Under the pieces are notes generated by a model. That model was not told the DNA's origin. It made no database searches and saw only the letters and a list, made by a program, of their open reading frames with translations. Of a stretch of DNA of 64,000 nt, positions 1,727 through 8,660 are shown one piece after another; within the stretch, counting starts at the first letter, position 1, and every line of letters starts with the position of its first letter. Position numbers and translations under genes: made by a program. The DNA is from Escherichia coli. GTDB taxonomy: Bacteria > Pseudomonadota > Gammaproteobacteria > Enterobacterales > Enterobacteriaceae. The stretch lies in the NCBI RefSeq assembly GCF_024502345.1, contig NZ_JALDNN010000001.1; one strand, 5' to 3'.

Positions 1727-4540
1727 ATGCCAATGGAGAGCTGTACGCAAATGAACGCCGTAGAAATTGAACAAGCCATCACGGATCTTGCAGAGCAACC
1801 CTTTGATCCTATAGAGTTTCCTTATGCTTTTCTTGAAGCCTTTGGTAACAAGGAAACGACTGTCAAACGCTTGCGCGCCGGTGCATCAAACAAATCCGAC
1901 TTGGGCGGTGTTCTCCAGAGCAATAATATTCACATTCTGACCTGCGAAGCAGGGACTGTGACTCAGATGTTGGCCGCGCTCAAGGCTAGCCCTGCGACAA
2001 CTAAAGCCAAGGCGAAGTTCATCCTGGCTACAGATGGCAAAGATTTCGAAGCTGAAGACCTCGTTAGCGGTCAGACTGTCGCTTGCGCCTTTAAAGACTT
2101 CCCAGATCACTTCGGCTTTTTCTTGCCATTAGCAGGCATTAGCACAGTTCGTCAGATTTGTGAGAACTCCTTTGACATTCGGGCCACTAGCCGGCTGAAT
2201 CGTCTGTATGTCGAGTTGTTGAAAGATAACCCTACCTGGGGGACGGCGGAGCGACGTCATGACATGAACAAATTCATGACTCGGCTGATCTTTTGTTTTT
2301 TCGCTGAGGATACTGACATTTTCGTGGGTAAGGGACGCTTTACTGAAACCGTTGCGCAGATGAGTACAAGAGATTCGTCGAATACGCATGAAGTTATCGC
2401 TACCTTGTTTCGTGCCATGAACACCAGTAACAAAGATAGAGCCGCCGCTGGCATCCCGCGCTGGGCCAATGAGTTTCCTTATGTCAACGGACGCTTGTTC
2501 TCTGGGAGTAATGATGTACCACTGTTCAGTAAGATTGCACGGTCTTATTTGCTCCATGTGGGTAGCCTTGACTGGACCAAGATTAATCCGGATATCTTTG
2601 GCTCGATGATTCAGGCAATTGCCGAAGACGAAGAACGCGGAGAGCTGGGGATGCATTACACCAGCGTACCCAACATCTTAAAAGTTTTGAATCCACTATT
2701 TCTGGACGACCTGCGCGCAAAGCTGGATGAGGCGGGTGACAATCCGCGTATGTTGCTTAACCTGCGTAAGCGCATTTCCCACATCCGTGTGTTCGACCCA
2801 GCGTGCGGTTCTGGTAACTTTTTGGTTATCGCGTACAAGGAAATGCGTGCCATTGAGGCCGAAATCAACAAGCGGCGTAATGAGCCAGATCGCGCCTCGG
2901 ATATCCCACTTACCAACTTTCGCGGGATTGAACTAAGAGATTTCCCGGCAGAGATCGCCCGCCTTGCGCTTGTTATCGCTGAGTACCAATGTGATGTACT
3001 GTACCGTGGGCTGCGGTTGGCCTTGGCTGAGCTTCTTCCGTTACGCAACGAAAATTGGATTACCTGTGGCAATGCACTACGGCTCGACTGGTTAAGAATT
3101 TGCCCGCCGACAGGAACAGGTGTGAAATTACATGGCGATGACTTGTTTGGATCTCCGCTTGATCAGGCAGAGATCGACTTTGAGAATGAAGGCGGAGAGA
3201 CATACATTTGCGGTAACCCACCATACCTTGGTTCAAAGTGGCAGACGGATGAACATAAAGCTGATCTTGGCACAATCTTTTCTGGTCGCGTGAAAAATTG
3301 GAAATCGCTCGATTATGTTGCTGGCTGGTTCCTGAAAGCCGCTGACTATGGTAGCCAGACAAGTTCCCAGGCTGCTTTTGTTGCCACTAATTCAATCAGC
3401 CAAGGGCAGCAAGTGTCGATTCTGTGGCCGGAAATATTCAAGGCAGGACAAGAGATTAGTTTCGCTTACACGAGCTTTAAGTGGTCGAACCTCGCTACTC
3501 ACAACGCCGGGGTCACAGTTGTTATCATCGGAATTTCTAACTGTGTAGGAAAGTCGCGACGCCTCTTTTCGGCTGGAGGAGACAATGGTGCGACGACGTG
3601 TCGTGAGGTGGAGCGCATCAACGCCTATTTGATCGCTGGCCCTAACATCATTGTGGAGGGGGACAGTTGTCCAGCCGACAGTCTTGCAACGATGCAGTTC
3701 GGTAACCACCCGTACTATGGTGCATCACTGATCTTTTCGAGATCTGAAGCACAGCAGATGATGTCTGTCGATCCGCGTACGGCGCGTTTTATTCGCCCAC
3801 TATATGGCTCCCAAGAGTTCATTTCCGCTGTGCCACGAGCCTGTCTATGGATTAACGACGATGAGGCTGACGAAGCGGGGACGATTCCTCTGATAGCTGA
3901 GCGTATGAGCGCCGTAGCAAGTGCTAGACGTGCAAAAAAACAAGACAAGGCAGCCCAGAAACTGGCTAAGACTCCATATCGCTTTCGCGACCAGCAGACA
4001 TCTACGAATCATATTCTTGTGGTTCCTCGAGTCAGTTCAGAGAACCGTCCTTGCTTGCCGGTTGGATTACTTGACTCTGACTCTATCGTTCAAGATCAAG
4101 CATTCGCCCTTTACGACGCTCCTCTCTGGAACCTCGCCATCATAGCGAGTCGCCTGCATCTAGTTTGGATCGCCACGGTTTGTGGAAAGTTAGAGACACG
4201 CTACCGCTATTCAAACACCCTCGGCTGGAATACTTTCCCGCTCCCAACACTCACTGAGAAAAATAAGGCAGACCTCACGCGCTGTGCAGAGGATATTCTT
4301 CTGACTAGGGAGCATCACTTCCCTGCAACCATTGCAGACCTTTATGACCCCGAGAAGATGCCAGACGACCTGCGTATTGTGCACGAGCGTAATGACGAAG
4401 TGCTTGAGCGTATTTACATTGGGCGCCGCTTTAAGAATGACACAGAGCGGCTTGAGAAGCTGTTTGACCTTTATACTAAGATGGCCGCTTCAACTGCATC
4501 GGGCAAAAGCAATAAACGTAAAGTGGGAACCAATGCATGA
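1727..4540 (+). CDS. MmeI-family (type IIG/IIL-like) N6-adenine DNA methyltransferase with target-recognition region; N-terminal nuclease motif apparently degenerate
   Basis: 937-aa ORF. SAM motif I FDPACGSGNFLV, catalytic motif IV GNPPY, and MmeI/PglX hallmarks FPYVNGRLF, HYTSVPNILKVLNPLFLDDL, FVATNSISQGQQVSILWP, RYRYSNTLGWNTFP, LYDPEKMP. Alternative start at 1751 (MNAVEIEQ). Confidence 0.85.
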   Translation: MPMESCTQMNAVEIEQAITDLAEQPFDPIEFPYAFLEAFGNKETTVKRLRAGASNKSDLGGVLQSNNIHILTCEAGTVTQMLAALKASPATTKAKAKFILATDGKDFEAEDLVSGQTVACAFKDFPDHFGFFLPLAGISTVRQICENSFDIRATSRLNRLYVELLKDNPTWGTAERRHDMNKFMTRLIFCFFAEDTDIFVGKGRFTETVAQMSTRDSSNTHEVIATLFRAMNTSNKDRAAAGIPRWANEFPYVNGRLFSGSNDVPLFSKIARSYLLHVGSLDWTKINPDIFGSMIQAIAEDEERGELGMHYTSVPNILKVLNPLFLDDLRAKLDEAGDNPRMLLNLRKRISHIRVFDPACGSGNFLVIAYKEMRAIEAEINKRRNEPDRASDIPLTNFRGIELRDFPAEIARLALVIAEYQCDVLYRGLRLALAELLPLRNENWITCGNALRLDWLRICPPTGTGVKLHGDDLFGSPLDQAEIDFENEGGETYICGNPPYLGSKWQTDEHKADLGTIFSGRVKNWKSLDYVAGWFLKAADYGSQTSSQAAFVATNSISQGQQVSILWPEIFKAGQEISFAYTSFKWSNLATHNAGVTVVIIGISNCVGKSRRLFSAGGDNGATTCREVERINAYLIAGPNIIVEGDSCPADSLATMQFGNHPYYGASLIFSRSEAQQMMSVDPRTARFIRPLYGSQEFISAVPRACLWINDDEADEAGTIPLIAERMSAVASARRAKKQDKAAQKLAKTPYRFRDQQTSTNHILVVPRVSSENRPCLPVGLLDSDSIVQDQAFALYDAPLWNLAIIASRLHLVWIATVCGKLETRYRYSNTLGWNTFPLPTLTEKNKADLTRCAEDILLTREHHFPATIADLYDPEKMPDDLRIVHERNDEVLERIYIGRRFKNDTERLEKLFDLYTKMAASTASGKSNKRKVGTNA

Positions 4541-6582
4541 GCAACAAGATTAGATCTGTACCGTCAGTTTCTGTTACCTACTCACGCAACGGAGCATCGA
4601 CCAAGGCTAATTCTCTTGGGATGCGTCCTATGCAAGAAAGGGCTTATGAGAAGCGCGGAGAACAATATCTTCTCATAAAGTCGCCGCCCGCCTCTGGCAA
4701 GAGTCGTGCGCTGATGTTCGTCGCACTCGATAAACTCGCAAACCAGGGGATCAAACAGGCAATCATTGTCGTGCCGGAAAAATCTATCGGCGCGAGCTTC
4801 AACGATGAACCGCTATCGCAGTTTGGATTCTGGGCTGATTGGCATGTTGAACCTAAGTGGAATCTGTGCAACGCCCCCGGTAACGACAACGGCGGCAAGG
4901 TAAAATCTTTCGGCTCTTTTCTTGAAAGTAGCGACAAGGTGCTTGTTTGTACACACGCAACCTTTCGCTTCGCGGTCGATGCCTACGGTGTAGAGGCGTT
5001 TGACGATCGCCTGATCGCCGTCGATGAATTTCACCATGTGTCCGCTAACCCGGATAACAAGCTTGGTCAGCATCTGGGACAGTTCATTGAGCGTGACAAG
5101 ACGCACATCGTGGCCATGACCGGCTCCTACTTCCGGGGAGATGCGGAAGCCGTTTTGGCTCCTCAGGATGAGTCTAGGTTCGATACCGTCACCTACACCT
5201 ACTACGAACAACTCAACGGTTACGAATACCTCAAACAGCTTGATATCGGATACTTCTTTTATAGTGGATCATACATTGATGACATCCTCAATGTCCTCGA
5301 TCCTGACAAGAAAACGATTATCCATATTCCCAACGTCAATTCGCGCGAGAGTACGAAGGATAAAATTAAGGAGGTGGAGCACATTCTGAGCGAGCTTGGC
5401 GATTGGCAAGGTGCGGATCCTACGACTGGTTTTCAGCTAGTCAAGCGCCCCGATGGCCATGTGTTGCGTATTGCTGACCTGGTGGACCCAGCCAGTCAAG
5501 GCAAGATTCAGGAAAGCCTCCGAGCTCCAGAAATGAAGACAGACCGTGACTATGTAGACATCATTATTGCACTTGGTATGGCGAAGGAAGGTTTCGACTG
5601 GATCTGGTGCGAACATGCGCTGACTGTTGGCTACCGTGCCAGCCTGACTGAGATCGTGCAGATTATCGGTCGCGCTACTCGCGACGCGCCGGGTAAAACC
5701 CGCGCGAGATTTACTAACTTGATCGCCGAGCCCGACGCTGTAGAGGGCGCAGTAACTGAGGCAGTCAACGATACCTTGAAAGCTATCGCGGCGAGCCTGT
5801 TGATGGAACAGGTACTGGCTCCGCGCTTCGAGTTCAAGCCCAAGAATCCTGAAATCGGTCCGACTCCAGGCTTTGATTATGGTGATGGAGGATATGACCC
5901 GGATAGCTGCAATTTTGGTGTTAATGAGCAGACAGGGACGTATCAAATCGAGATTAAGGGACTTGCCGAGCCTAGGAGCAAAGAGGCGGCACGTATCTGC
6001 CAGGAAGATTTAAACGAAGTGATCGCGGCCTTTGTGCAGGATAAGCCCGCCATCGAACGAGGCCTGTTCGATGAAGAGCTGATCCCTGAAGAGTTAACAC
6101 AGGTTCGTATGGGTAAGATCATCAAAGAAAAGTATCCTGAACTTGATGCTGAAGATCAGGAGGCTGTACGTCAGCATGCTATCGCCGCCCTTAACCTCAC
6201 GCAGCAGGCCAAGCGTCTTGCTACCGGTGAAAACGATGGGACGCTCAATACTGCTCTTATTGACGGAGTGCGTCGCTTTGCAATGGATGTGCGCGATTTA
6301 GACATAGACCTTATCGACCGCATCAATCCCTTTGGTGAAGCCTACGCTATCCTTGCTAAGACGATGAGTGAAGACAGTTTGAAGCAGGTCGCGGCGGCCA
6401 TCTCGGCCAAGCGTACTTCGATCACGCCTGAAGATGCCAAGGTGATCGCCAAGCGTGCCGCTGAATTCAAACGTGAACGTGGGCGCCTCCCATCGTTAAC
6501 TTCGCTGGATGCTTGGGAAAAACACCTTGCTGAAGGTGCAGCCGCGTTTATGCGTTTTAGGGCGGAGGGACGTTATGAGTAA
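4537..6582 (+). CDS. SF2 DExH-box helicase with ~280-aa C-terminal extension of unknown function
   Basis: 681-aa ORF. Walker A PPASGKS, motif II VDEFHH, motif III MTGSY, motif VI QIIGRATR. Start ATG overlaps the methyltransferase stop (ATGA at 4537-4540). Confidence 0.8.
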   Translation: MSNKIRSVPSVSVTYSRNGASTKANSLGMRPMQERAYEKRGEQYLLIKSPPASGKSRALMFVALDKLANQGIKQAIIVVPEKSIGASFNDEPLSQFGFWADWHVEPKWNLCNAPGNDNGGKVKSFGSFLESSDKVLVCTHATFRFAVDAYGVEAFDDRLIAVDEFHHVSANPDNKLGQHLGQFIERDKTHIVAMTGSYFRGDAEAVLAPQDESRFDTVTYTYYEQLNGYEYLKQLDIGYFFYSGSYIDDILNVLDPDKKTIIHIPNVNSRESTKDKIKEVEHILSELGDWQGADPTTGFQLVKRPDGHVLRIADLVDPASQGKIQESLRAPEMKTDRDYVDIIIALGMAKEGFDWIWCEHALTVGYRASLTEIVQIIGRATRDAPGKTRARFTNLIAEPDAVEGAVTEAVNDTLKAIAASLLMEQVLAPRFEFKPKNPEIGPTPGFDYGDGGYDPDSCNFGVNEQTGTYQIEIKGLAEPRSKEAARICQEDLNEVIAAFVQDKPAIERGLFDEELIPEELTQVRMGKIIKEKYPELDAEDQEAVRQHAIAALNLTQQAKRLATGENDGTLNTALIDGVRRFAMDVRDLDIDLIDRINPFGEAYAILAKTMSEDSLKQVAAAISAKRTSITPEDAKVIAKRAAEFKRERGRLPSLTSLDAWEKHLAEGAAAFMRFRAEGRYE

Positions 6583-7753
6583 TTCTGATTTAGACGATTT
6601 GGCGGCAGAACTTGCTGAATTTGCACCACCGGAGAAGAAAAAAGGACGTCCAGCCAGCGAGGAACGCATCATCGCAGGTTTTGAGGAAATCCAGCGCTTC
6701 GCTGACCAACATGGACGTGCGCCGCAACACGGCGAAGAGCGTGAGATCTTTGAGCGCCTCTATGCAGTGCGGCTCGACCGGCTACGCAGTCTCCCAGACT
6801 GCCGTGCCTTGCTAGAGCCGCTGGATCATCAAGGCTTATTGGCTGGAGGGGGTGATGTAGCGGAGTCAGCGGACGAAATTATCGATATCGATAATTTGGC
6901 TGCCGAACTGACGGATGTTTCCAGCGAGGATGATATCACAGTCTTGCGTCATGTTCGTGCTAGCGCCGAAAAGCGTGCTGTACAAGGGATCGCGGATCGC
7001 AAGCCGTGCGAGGATTTTGATACATTCAAACCGCTATTTGAACAGGTGCGCAGTGATCTAAGTTCAGGGTTAAGAGTGACCCGACCTTTTGGACAGTATG
7101 CAACGATTGAAGTGGGCCATTGGTTCATCCTGGATGGTCAAACGGCTTATGTGGCTGAGGAAGGTGAAGAGTTCGATTCTCCACAGGGGAAGAAAGATGC
7201 TCGGCTGCGTGTCATTTATTCGAATGGTACAGAAAGTAACCTGCTTCGGCTGTCATTAGTTCGTGCTTTGTATAAAGACGAAACAGCACGTCGAATTACC
7301 GATCCAGACATGGGGCCTTTATTCAGCGATGCTCTAGAAGAGAGCGATCTAGAAAGTGGCACCATTTATGTATTGCGTTCGCTATCAGATAACCCTTATG
7401 TGGCCGAACATCGTGATGTTATTCACAAGATTGGTGTGACTGGCGGCAAGGTCGAGACTCGTATTGCTAATGCTGAACACGATTCCACCTATCTGTTGGC
7501 GAAGGTAGAGGTGGTCGCTTCATACAAACTCGCAGGTATCAACCGCACCCGGATGGAAAACCTGTTTCACAGGTTGTTTGCACCCGCAAGGCTTAACATT
7601 ACCATTAACGACCGTTTCGGCCATCCAGTACAGCCCGAGGAATGGTTTCTCGTTCCGTTATTCGTTATCGATGAGGCTGTTGCACGTATTAAGGATGGTA
7701 GCATCATTGGGTATGTTTATGACCCCATGTCTGCGAAACTGGTGAAGGCATAG
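6575..7753 (+). CDS. T5orf172/MUG113 (GIY-YIG superfamily) domain protein, candidate nuclease, with acidic N-terminal domain of unknown function
   Basis: C-terminal GTIYVLRS...HKIGVTGGKVETRIANAEH...PEEWFLVPL fits the T5orf172 GIY-YIG-like pattern. GGAGGGA Shine-Dalgarno 6 nt upstream of ATG 6575; start overlaps the helicase stop (taa 6580-6582). The ORF track's upstream ATG at 6509 lacks an RBS. Confidence 0.65.
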   Translation: MSNSDLDDLAAELAEFAPPEKKKGRPASEERIIAGFEEIQRFADQHGRAPQHGEEREIFERLYAVRLDRLRSLPDCRALLEPLDHQGLLAGGGDVAESADEIIDIDNLAAELTDVSSEDDITVLRHVRASAEKRAVQGIADRKPCEDFDTFKPLFEQVRSDLSSGLRVTRPFGQYATIEVGHWFILDGQTAYVAEEGEEFDSPQGKKDARLRVIYSNGTESNLLRLSLVRALYKDETARRITDPDMGPLFSDALEESDLESGTIYVLRSLSDNPYVAEHRDVIHKIGVTGGKVETRIANAEHDSTYLLAKVEVVASYKLAGINRTRMENLFHRLFAPARLNITINDRFGHPVQPEEWFLVPLFVIDEAVARIKDGSIIGYVYDPMSAKLVKA

Positions 7754-7868: not shown

Positions 7869-8660
7869 ATGAATAGTAACCTGACCAAGATATGTTACCG
7901 TGGTGAGACTGGTGAAAGTGATCTAAGAACGTTGATACTTGGTGAGATTCTATATATCTCACTACGAGATGTTTTAATCACGCTGAATAAAGAAAATAGA
8001 GAAATCAACGCTGATTACACAGTAAAATCGATGGCTGGAATAATCAGGGCGCAATTACAGGCTCTTGACCCTGATGAGTATATTACTACAGATGCTGAAA
8101 ATGGTGTTTTTGAAGGTCAGAAAGAGATCTTCGTCACCCAGCCAGGTTTGTATCGAGTCATGTCAAGTGACCGAAGCGCTGCCGGTAAGCGCTTTCAAAA
8201 ATGGTTATTTCATGAAGTCATACCATCATTGACTAAGCATGGTGTATACCCGCCTCCGCCAGAAGCGAAAGGTTCAGCCCTTGCACAAATGGCTGAGATA
8301 CTTGCTCAAAATTCGCGAGCACTTGCTGACGCAATCCATAAACACGAAAAACTGGCCGAAGATGTCTCACAGGTTAAAGGTAAAGTTGCCAACGTTGAAA
8401 GCCGTCTGGAACTGTTAGAATCAGGTCCTTCCACTGTAACTGAAGATATGCATACTCTTGATAGCCGTCTCGCTTATTTGGACATGAGCATGGAAGAAAA
8501 GCATACCACCGAGACATTAGCCTGGTGCGAGAATATTTCTGTTCAAAATAACAGGAAGGTGATTCGCAAGGACTGTAGGGAGAATTCGCTCTTTACAACG
8601 CAGACTATCGACGAAGCAATCGCTATCATGACTGAAAGTGGAAAAATCACACCAAATTGA
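7869..8660 (+). CDS. Bro-N (KilA-N/antirepressor-like) domain protein with coiled-coil C-terminus
   Basis: 263-aa ORF. N-terminal ...DLRTLILGEILYISLRDVLITL...GLYRVMSSDRSAAGKRFQKWLFHEVIPSLTKHGVY resembles the Bro-N fold pattern. GAGGAT RBS upstream. Confidence 0.55.
   Translation: MNSNLTKICYRGETGESDLRTLILGEILYISLRDVLITLNKENREINADYTVKSMAGIIRAQLQALDPDEYITTDAENGVFEGQKEIFVTQPGLYRVMSSDRSAAGKRFQKWLFHEVIPSLTKHGVYPPPPEAKGSALAQMAEILAQNSRALADAIHKHEKLAEDVSQVKGKVANVESRLELLESGPSTVTEDMHTLDSRLAYLDMSMEEKHTTETLAWCENISVQNNRKVIRKDCRENSLFTTQTIDEAIAIMTESGKITPN

What the first reader, a model, noticed from the sequence alone, without database searches (positions are those of the whole stretch)
6400..6760. Short shared motif at the helicase C-terminus and the nuclease N-terminus
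Helicase tail ...RAAEFKRERGRLPS...AEGAAAFMRFRAEG and nuclease N-terminus ...LAEFAPPEKKKGRPAS...IAGFEEIQRFADQHG share the pattern AEF...GR.PS...AxG..F.RF...G. This may reflect a duplicated interaction peptide, or a remnant of gene fission or fusion across the overlapping junction. It could also be chance.
Basis: seen in the sequence. Interest (0 to 1): 0.3.

Follow-up and report, generated by a model that had tools for sequence, protein, structure and literature searches.

The report
Shared helical module, not the reported motif
The motif as drawn is a chance resemblance, but about 22 residues out of register the end of the helicase and the start of the neighbouring nuclease do share a small, anciently related helical module, in an already described but poorly understood three-gene restriction-like cassette.

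Summary
They lie in helicase aa 640-678 and nuclease aa 13-47, in genes 4537-6582 and 6575-7753. The pattern fits both proteins only with variable gaps. The best local alignment of the two ends is at chance level (score 25-26, shuffle p 0.14-0.36). The nuclease 'GRPAS' is not conserved in homologues.

A real similarity exists in a different register. Helicase 632-676 (helix, GRLPS loop, helix) aligns with nuclease 30-75 (helix, GRAPQ loop, helix). Profile-profile P is 7e-8, and 0 of 200 column shuffles come near the score. A profile of the nuclease module finds the C-terminal tails of distant helicases (E 8e-6 and 1.5e-4). Both modules give sub-threshold hits to Pfam PMBR with the loop proline at the same profile position. 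AlphaFold models both modules confidently.

In 87 loci the two genes are always adjacent, usually overlapping by 8 nt, and never fused. The cassette is the known DnmA/YeeB/YeeC type: MmeI-like methyltransferase, SF2 helicase and GIY-YIG nuclease.

The likely role is docking or assembly of helicase and nuclease. This is inferred, not shown. Interest is modest.

The parts
1727..4540 (+). MmeI-like (type IIG/IIL-like) N6-adenine DNA methyltransferase, DnmA/YeeA-type; first gene of the cassette
   Evidence: Pfam MmeI_N, MmeI_hel, MmeI_Mtase, MmeI_TRD and MmeI_C all above cut-off. PADLOC REase_MTase_IIG, E 3.9e-284.
4537..6582 (+). SF2 DEAD/ResIII helicase, YeeB-type, 681 aa
   Evidence: Pfam DEAD 27.1 bits and ResIII 25.3 bits, both above cut-off. 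Annotated DEAD/DEAH box helicase in E. coli.
6427..6564 (+). Helicase C-terminal helical hairpin module (aa 631-676): helix 631-648, loop GRLPSLTSLD 649-658, helix 659-676
   Evidence: AlphaFold pLDDT 92-96. hhalign to the nuclease module: P 7.4e-8, probability 94.5%, 45 columns. PMBR sub-threshold hit at aa 628-653.
6564..6569 (+). Shine-Dalgarno-like GGAGGG for the nuclease, lying in the codons of the helicase's conserved C-terminal A-E-G (aa 676-678)
   Evidence: Read from the sequence. An SD-like GGAG/GAGG/AGGA at -18..-4 is present in 64 of 80 related loci.
6575..6582 (+). 8-nt gene overlap ATGAGTAA (nuclease ATG 6575-6577, helicase TAA 6580-6582), a translational-coupling junction
   Evidence: The same 8-nt overlap occurs in 61 of 80 loci, and the other 19 overlap by 11-26 nt.
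6575..7753 (+). GIY-YIG / T5orf172 nuclease, YeeC-type, 392 aa
   Evidence: Pfam MUG113 50.6 bits and T5orf172 43.9 bits at aa 262-372. PGAP start agrees. AlphaFold mean pLDDT 88.8.
6587..6622 (+).
   Evidence: Predicted helix 4-14. Conserved as DD.LLAELG or LDDIL.DD.LGLL in homologues. Co-varies with peptide 2.
6644..6658 (+).
   Evidence: Conservation tables.
6653..6844 (+). Nuclease N-terminal three-helix module (aa 27-90): helix 27-46, loop GRAPQHGEERE 47-57, helix 58-72, helix 74-83, then DHQGLL. The part homologous to the helicase hairpin is aa 30-75 (6662-6799).
   Evidence: pLDDT 95-97. The two peptide patterns the locus-search tool picked as the most conserved stretches of the nuclease alignment both fall inside this module. 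hhalign. Sub-threshold PMBR, HA and HNH_repeat hits.
6884..6919 (+). Acidic amphipathic peptide 2 (aa 104-115, DIDNLAAELTDV) in a low-confidence linker
   Evidence: Helix 105-113 at pLDDT about 55. Self versus non-self peptide similarity 31.4 vs 21.1, permutation p < 2e-4.

Best explanation
What it is (well supported). The extreme C-terminus of the helicase (aa 631-676) and the N-terminal region of the nuclease (aa 27-90) each carry one copy of the same small helical module. Its signature is an amphipathic helix ending in F-x3-(h)G-R-x-P, a roughly 10-residue loop, and a second helix starting E-x-x-(L/M)-A. The nuclease copy has a third helix. The helicase copy stops after the second helix.

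The two copies are remote paralogues (7 of 46 identities in this window). They belong to the loose group of 'hGRxP' helical repeats that Pfam models as PMBR, HA and HNH_repeat.

How it works (inferred). The two genes are translationally coupled. They share an 8-nt overlap, and the nuclease's ribosome-binding site lies in the helicase's last codons, so the proteins are made together. The modules sit at the two ends that face each other across the junction. The helicase hairpin is mildly basic. The nuclease N-terminal 125 aa are strongly acidic and also carry two co-varying acidic amphipathic peptides.

The most likely role is therefore assembly. The modules either pack against each other or dock on the same site of a common partner, such as the N-terminal domain of the MmeI-like methyltransferase. 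Either way the GIY-YIG nuclease would be tethered to the translocating helicase in a type-I-like restriction complex.
For: - Profile-profile alignment of helicase tails and nuclease modules: P 2.5e-5 with close homologues only.
- After adding 7 distant helicase tails: P 7.4e-8, probability 94.5%, 45 columns.
- Column-shuffle nulls reach at most 18.3 and 15.5, against observed scores of 24.9 and 36.7. None of 300 and none of 200 shuffles match.
- An HMM of the nuclease module alone finds the C-terminal tail of distant helicases, L089 at E 8e-6 and L087 at E 1.5e-4. Where it matches the window's helicase and the other distant ones, it does so only at the extreme C-terminus; the aligned profile positions coincide for the window and 5 of the 7 distant helicases.
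- PMBR is hit by 25 of 25 helicase tails (best E 2.7e-7) and 23 of 67 nuclease modules (best E 5e-4). The GRxP proline falls on PMBR profile position 28 in both.
- AlphaFold models both modules as helix-loop-helix at pLDDT 92-97.
- The genes are adjacent and overlapping in 80 of 80 genome loci, with an SD-like site in 64 of 80. The order is kept in 7 distant loci.
- Net charge: helicase hairpin mean +2.3; nuclease N-terminal region mean -12.7.
- Morgan et al. 2009 had already proposed that these three proteins act as one complex (PMC2731913).
Against: - The window's own pair is not detectably similar. The score in the correct register is -10, with 7 of 46 identities.
- The nuclease-module HMM scores the window helicase only at E 3.3 among 768 ORFs. 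The reciprocal search gives E 56.
- All Pfam hits for the window sequences are below gathering cut-offs.
- A similar 'F..hGRxP' helix-turn also appears in unrelated proteins such as the UBA1 four-helix bundle. Convergence on a stable hairpin is therefore possible.
- No interaction, stoichiometry or DNA-binding data exist. No complex model could be run.
- The HA domain, the only one of the three related Pfam families (PMBR, HA, HNH_repeat) for which I found a nucleic-acid role reported, is said to bind DNA (Mills 2013, cited in PMC12191111). That would favour DNA binding over docking.
Confidence: 0.5

Rival explanations
1. Independent DNA-binding modules. Both copies are HA-like small helical DNA-binding domains. 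Each contacts DNA on its own, one helping the helicase and the other positioning the nuclease, with no direct pairing.
For: Five of 67 nuclease modules give sub-threshold hits to Pfam HA that in the two hits inspected cover helix 1 and most or all of the rest of the module (best E 0.006). The HA domain of BVU_0683 was reported to bind DNA (Mills et al. 2013, cited in PMC12191111). The helicase hairpin is mildly basic, mean +2.3.
Against: The nuclease module is on average acidic (-2.1). It is embedded in a very acidic N-terminal region, mean -12.7 over 125 aa, which is unusual for a DNA binder. HA hits are far below cut-off (17.3 vs 28.4 bits). The profile did not find the solved HA structure in the PDB at E <= 10.
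Confidence: 0.22
2. Convergent structural motif. The two segments are unrelated helical hairpins that independently use the common 'hydrophobic helix, GRxP turn, Glu-capped helix' solution. The similarity carries no shared ancestry or shared function.
For: The same short signature gives weak hits in unrelated proteins: E1_4HB/UBA1, PMBR and HNH_repeat. The conserved residues (F, G, R, P, E, A/L) look structural. The window pair shares only 7 of 46 residues.
Against: The hhalign match spans both helices and the loop (45 columns, P 7.4e-8), not just the turn. The nuclease HMM hits distant helicase tails at E 8e-6 across positions 12-47. Location at the facing ends of two coupled genes, in every locus examined, would be a coincidence.
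Confidence: 0.15
3. Remnant of gene fission or fusion. An ancestral helicase-nuclease polypeptide carried a tandem pair of these repeats in its middle and was split between them, or the two genes are on the way to fusing.
For: As far as I recall, PMBR, HA and HNH_repeat modules typically occur in tandem arrays; the solved pseudomurein endoisopeptidase has four. Read through, the two copies here would sit about 35 residues apart. The genes overlap.
Against: No fused form was found in 80 genome loci from Proteobacteria, Bacteroidota and an archaeal MAG, in 7 distant metagenome loci, or among the 150 best cluster representatives, the longest of which is 521 aa. The genes are in different frames. 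The copies are so diverged that any split predates the whole family.
Confidence: 0.08
4. Pure chance. There is nothing shared between the two ends at all.
For: Pairwise statistics: p 0.14-0.36. Single-profile searches against the window sequences are not significant.
Against: and the identical PMBR register in both proteins.
Confidence: 0.05

Closest known systems
DnmA(YeeA)-YeeB-YeeC type three-gene cassette (MmeI homologues lacking the endonuclease motif, flanked by a DEAD helicase and a GIY-YIG protein; Morgan et al. 2009, PMC2731913; Fernandez et al. 2023, PMC9973331)
   Same: Same three families in the same order: MmeI-like methyltransferase, SF2 helicase, T5orf172/GIY-YIG protein. It lies in a mobile or defence island. 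It was proposed to act as a type-I-like complex, with the methyltransferase giving specificity.
   Different: The papers I could read do not describe a shared module at the helicase C-terminus and the nuclease N-terminus, nor the coupled junction. The B. subtilis system showed no restriction or anti-phage activity, while Vibrio homologues did affect phage sensitivity. Activity of this E. coli-type cassette is untested.
Pfam PMBR (PF09373, pseudomurein-binding repeat of archaeal/phage PeiW/PeiP endoisopeptidases)
   Same: Helix 1 plus the G-R-x-P turn align to PMBR positions 4-29 in the same register in both proteins. All 25 helicase tails tested hit it.
   Different: The window sequences score below the cut-off (21.3 and 17.2 bits vs 24.9). 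Only the first half of the module is covered. There is a single copy rather than a tandem array of four. The context is a cytoplasmic nucleic-acid enzyme, so a cell-wall-binding role is implausible.
Pfam HA (PF03457, helicase-associated domain) and HNH_repeat (PF18780, homing-endonuclease-associated repeat)
   Same: Small three-helix units attached to helicases and nucleases. Some nuclease modules align to most or nearly all of the HA profile. The window nuclease aa 36-54 aligns to HNH_repeat.
   Different: All hits are sub-threshold (at most 17.3 vs 28.4 bits; 15.8 vs 26 bits). Those domains usually come in multiple tandem copies on one protein, as far as I recall. Here there is one copy on each of two adjacent proteins.
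Type I restriction-modification enzymes (HsdR helicase-nuclease docking on the HsdM/HsdS methyltransferase)
   Same: Separate specificity/methylation and motor/nuclease components presumed to assemble. There is an SF2 motor.
   Different: Motor and nuclease are separate polypeptides here. The nuclease is GIY-YIG, not PD-(D/E)xK. The methyltransferase is a single MmeI-like chain with its own TRD. No homology of the docking elements was tested.

Membership tests
DnmA/YeeB/YeeC-type MmeI-like three-gene system | MmeI-family methyltransferase with MTase, TRD and C-terminal domains | tested here: met
   All five MmeI Pfam domains are above cut-off.
DnmA/YeeB/YeeC-type MmeI-like three-gene system | Immediately followed by a DEAD-type helicase and then a GIY-YIG/T5orf172 protein, all on the same strand | tested here: met
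   The helicase-nuclease adjacency is kept in 80 of 80 genome loci; the full methyltransferase-helicase-nuclease order was seen in the distant loci whose contigs reach the upstream gene.
DnmA/YeeB/YeeC-type MmeI-like three-gene system | The methyltransferase lacks the PD-ExK endonuclease motif of true MmeI enzymes | tested here: inconclusive
   By eye, I found no D-x(n)-E-x-K motif in the first ~130 residues of the translation. The Pfam MmeI_N domain still matches, and no alignment to MmeI itself was made.
Pfam PMBR (PF09373) | Score at or above the gathering cut-off of 24.9 bits | tested here: not met
   Window helicase: 17.2 bits for the full protein and 21.3 bits for the tail alone. Window nuclease: no PMBR hit. 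Homologues: 25 of 25 tails and 23 of 67 modules hit at E < 1.
Pfam PMBR (PF09373) | Tandem array that binds pseudomurein cell wall | tested here: not met
   There is a single copy per protein; the HMM scan found no further copies. The host is a bacterium and the proteins are DNA enzymes. Binding itself is not testable here.
Pfam HA (PF03457) | Score at or above the gathering cut-off of 28.4 bits | tested here: not met
   Best 17.3 bits, in 5 of 67 nuclease modules. None for the window sequences.
Pfam HNH_repeat (PF18780) | Score at or above the gathering cut-off of 26 bits | tested here: not met
   Window nuclease: 13.3 bits (full protein) and 15.8 bits (module alone), at aa 36-54.
GIY-YIG / T5orf172 nuclease | Pfam T5orf172 or MUG113 above cut-off | tested here: met
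   43.9 bits (cut-off 20) and 50.6 bits (cut-off 22.3) at aa 262-372. Catalytic activity is not testable here.
Translationally coupled gene pair | Stop/start overlap with a ribosome-binding site inside the upstream gene | tested here: met
   ATGAGTAA overlap at 6575-6582 and GGAGGG at 6564-6569. Conserved in 61 of 80 and 64 of 80 loci respectively. Actual coupling of translation is not testable here.

The most novel reading that the evidence does not exclude
The helicase's two-helix hairpin is an incomplete copy of the nuclease's three-helix module. It is completed in trans by the nuclease, either by the nuclease's own module or by one of its two co-varying acidic peptides. This would form the physical latch that couples a GIY-YIG nuclease to an SF2 translocase in MmeI-like three-component restriction systems. 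If so, it is a previously undescribed, modular 'split repeat' assembly interface that could be reused across defence systems.
Probability: 0.2. Interest if true: 0.5.

Novelty: new variant of a known kind. Interest (0 to 1): 0.3.

Why it matters
The DnmA/YeeB/YeeC-type cassette is widespread. It is present in 202 of 5426 complete E. coli genomes. At 60-95% nuclease identity it is found across many Proteobacteria, with single hits in a Bacteroidota and an archaeal metagenome-assembled genome. How its three proteins cooperate is unknown, and published tests of its activity disagree.

A defined pair of related modules at the helicase-nuclease junction gives concrete deletion and point-mutation targets for asking whether the two proteins form a complex and whether that is needed for restriction.

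For the scan itself, the lesson is methodological. An eye-drawn gapped motif was chance. The real relationship lay one helix away and was visible only with profiles.

Tried and rejected
- **Pairwise alignment of the two ends.** Not significant.
- **Single-profile HMM searches against the window.** The nuclease-module HMM scores the window helicase at E 3.3, and the helicase-tail HMM scores the window nuclease at E 56. The link needs profile-profile comparison or distant helicase tails.
- **The search for related loci with 87- and 26-sequence alignments.** A 7-sequence alignment worked.
- **Foldseek of both AlphaFold models against the PDB.** Nothing at E < 0.001. The helicase-tail hits are generic helical bundles. 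The nuclease hits concern its middle beta domain.
- **Profile searches of PDB sequences.** No significant hit. The best for the helicase tail is the PMB repeats of 8z4f at E 0.63.
- **Idea that the acidic peptides mimic the module's third element (D..GLL).** Not supported: hhalign P 0.009 and 0.16.
- **hhalign of peptide 1 against peptide 2.** Formally weak, P 0.005. The self versus non-self test was used instead.
- **Rfam scan of 6000-7200.** Only a sub-threshold gut-2 hit. No RNA element at the junction.
- **Literature search on 'PMBR'.** Returned only unrelated acronyms.
- **Mills et al. 2013 (HA-domain paper).** Not held in the library.
- **Shorter nuclease 'homologues'.** They turned out to be contig-edge fragments or a split ORF, not natural N-terminal truncations. 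The planned co-loss test could not be done.
- **NCBIfam and PADLOC.** No model for the helicase-nuclease pair.
Full report
**Anatomy**

The flagged stretch, 6400-6760, spans the junction of two + strand genes. A 681-aa SF2 helicase occupies 4537-6582. A 392-aa GIY-YIG/T5orf172 nuclease starts at ATG 6575, not at the longer ORF start 6509. NCBI's PGAP annotation of a 98% identical E. coli chromosome uses the same start.

The genes overlap by 8 nt (ATGAGTAA). A GGAGGG lies 5 nt upstream of the ATG, in the codons of the helicase's conserved C-terminal A-E-G (aa 676-678). Upstream lies an MmeI-like methyltransferase (1727-4540) with all five MmeI Pfam domains. Downstream lies a BRO-N gene.

This is the DnmA(YeeA)/YeeB/YeeC-type cassette. 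Morgan et al. 2009 noted it as MmeI homologues 'invariably' flanked by a DEAD helicase and a GIY-YIG protein, and proposed that the three act together (PMC2731913). In B. subtilis it showed no restriction or anti-phage activity, while Vibrio homologues affected phage sensitivity (PMC9973331).

**Checking the observation**

The quoted residues are present. The pattern as written fits both proteins only if nearly every spacer is allowed to vary. The nuclease also has GRPAS rather than GR.PS.

Its score of 25-26 is ordinary for shuffled sequences (p 0.14-0.36).

In close nuclease homologues (>=80% identity) K23, P26 and S28 are only 45-57% conserved. In 37-64% identical homologues the 'GRPAS' stretch is not recognisable. 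The 'AEF' belongs to a different element, an N-terminal acidic peptide. The helicase tail is nearly invariant among the 114 close (>=91% identical) homologues aligned, so it carries no information at that depth.

**What is really there**

Pfam gave two weak but suggestive hits. One was PMBR on helicase 628-653. The other was HNH_repeat on nuclease 36-54. Together these imply a different register, GRLPS opposite GRAPQ.

I collected three sets of relatives:
- diverse nuclease homologues;
- 80 genome loci;
- 7 distant metagenome loci with their upstream helicases.

Four lines of evidence then support a shared module.
- **Profile-profile comparison.** Helicase tails against nuclease modules gave P 2.5e-5 with close homologues. 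With distant tails included it gave P 7.4e-8 (probability 94.5%, 45 columns), aligning helicase 632-676 with nuclease 30-75. Column-shuffled controls never approached the observed scores: maxima 18.3 and 15.5 against 24.9 and 36.7.
- **Cross-detection.** An HMM of the nuclease module alone detects the extreme C-termini of distant helicases, at E 8e-6 and 1.5e-4. Its matches to the other distant helicases and to the window helicase, all individually non-significant, also fall at the extreme C-terminus, and the aligned profile positions coincide for the window and five of the seven distant helicases.
- **Common Pfam family.** Both modules hit PMBR: 25 of 25 helicase tails and 23 of 67 nuclease modules. 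The loop proline falls on profile position 28 in each.
- **Structure prediction.** AlphaFold models helicase 631-648 / 649-658 / 659-676 as helix-loop-helix at pLDDT 92-96. It models nuclease 27-46 / 47-57 / 58-72 / 74-83 as helix-loop-helix-helix at pLDDT 95-97.

In the window's own pair the relationship is invisible: 7 of 46 identities and a BLOSUM62 score of -10. Single-profile searches against the window sequences are not significant either.

**Fusion or fission**

In all 80 genome loci the helicase lies directly upstream of the nuclease, in a different frame. The two genes overlap by 8 nt in 61 loci and by 11-26 nt in 19. None is fused.

The 7 distant loci keep separate genes, with junctions from -14 to +10 nt. 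None of the 150 best cluster representatives of the nuclease exceeds 521 aa. Apparent short nucleases were contig-edge fragments or a split ORF.

**Mechanism**

Shown:
- two related helical modules sit at the facing ends of two proteins;
- the junction carries the sequence hallmarks of translational coupling.

Inferred: the modules serve assembly. The arguments for this are as follows.
- The position at the very C-terminus of one protein and near the N-terminus of the next.
- The helicase copy lacks the third helix.
- The helicase hairpin is mildly basic (+2.3), while the nuclease N-terminal 125 aa are strongly acidic (-12.7 on average). That region also carries two acidic amphipathic peptides that resemble each other more within a protein than between proteins (31.4 vs 21.1, permutation p < 2e-4).
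- Morgan et al. had already suggested that the three proteins form one enzyme.

The main rival is that both are HA-like DNA-binding units. The HA domain is reported to bind DNA (Mills 2013, cited in PMC12191111). The acidity of the nuclease region argues against this for the nuclease copy.

Convergence on a common 'helix, GRxP, helix' hairpin cannot be excluded. The same short signature gives weak hits in unrelated proteins such as the UBA1 four-helix bundle.

**Comparison with known families**

The cassette is a member of the known DnmA/YeeB/YeeC type. The modules resemble PMBR, HA and HNH_repeat, but the window sequences fail every Pfam gathering cut-off. I therefore do not file them as members of any of these families. 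No solved structure matched by sequence or fold. PADLOC and NCBIfam have no model for the helicase-nuclease pair.

**Verdict**

The motif as reported is chance. A genuine but remote shared module exists one helix out of register, in a known system.

I did not find the shared module described in the papers I could search. This is a modest refinement rather than a new kind of system. Interest 0.3.

Noticed in passing
window 6587-6622 and 6884-6919: The nuclease carries two copies of a short acidic amphipathic peptide, DLDDLAAELAEF and DIDNLAAELTDV, flanking its helical module. In distant homologues the peptide reads sLDDIL.DD.LGLL. Across 87 homologues the two copies resemble each other more within a protein than between proteins (31.4 vs 21.1, p < 2e-4), which suggests a shared binding partner.
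   Followed up: partly
window 6564-6582: The helicase's conserved C-terminal residues A/E/G-R-Y-E are dual-coded. The codons GCG-GAG-GGA supply the nuclease's Shine-Dalgarno site, and TAT-GAG-TAA contains its ATG. This may explain why the helicase's last residues are so conserved in the close family (8-nt overlap in 61 of 80 loci, SD-like site in 64 of 80).
   Followed up: yes
window 6526-6540 and 6611-6625: A 15-nt direct DNA repeat, CTTGCTGAAGGTGCA / CTTGCTGAATTTGCA (13 of 15 identical). It is in frame in both genes (helicase LAEGA, nuclease LAEFA). About 0.2 such matches are expected by chance in 700 nt, so it is probably coincidence.
   Followed up: partly
window about 6990-7325 (nuclease aa ~140-250): The nuclease's middle domain is a confidently modelled beta-rich domain. 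It has weak Foldseek resemblance to the eIF5A/EF-P N-domain and to tudor/SAWADEE barrels (E 0.01-0.4). Its function is unknown; it is possibly a nucleic-acid or modification reader.
   Followed up: no
window 6298-6333 (helicase aa 588-599): The motif LDIDLIDRINPF is the most invariant stretch of the helicase C-terminal region, even in helicases that are 26-35% identical over the C-terminal 130 aa (I39, L41, I42 and P47 of alignment A6). It lies in a segment AlphaFold models poorly in isolation.
   Followed up: no
L092 2685-3876: In one low-coverage metagenome contig the nuclease is split into a 104-aa ORF (the N-terminal region) and a 291-aa ORF (the rest), exactly at the disordered linker. 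This is probably an assembly or frameshift artefact, but it would be a natural place for domain separation.
   Followed up: no
L044, L079 and other loci: The cassette occurs at 60-95% nuclease identity across Gamma-, Beta-, Alpha- and Deltaproteobacteria, in a Bacteroidota MAG and in a Methanoregulaceae (archaeal) MAG. This implies wide horizontal spread. The archaeal contig is only 4 kb and could be a binning contaminant.
   Followed up: no
window 7869-8660 and L001: A BRO-N domain gene follows the cassette. In the closest E. coli genome the region sits in an integrase-bearing island, next to yagL/yagM-like genes, IS66/IS256 remnants and a WYL-domain gene.
   Followed up: no
window 6048-6101: A sub-threshold Rfam hit to gut-2 sRNA (22.1 bits vs 39.8, E 0.04) inside the helicase coding sequence. 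Most likely chance.
   Followed up: no
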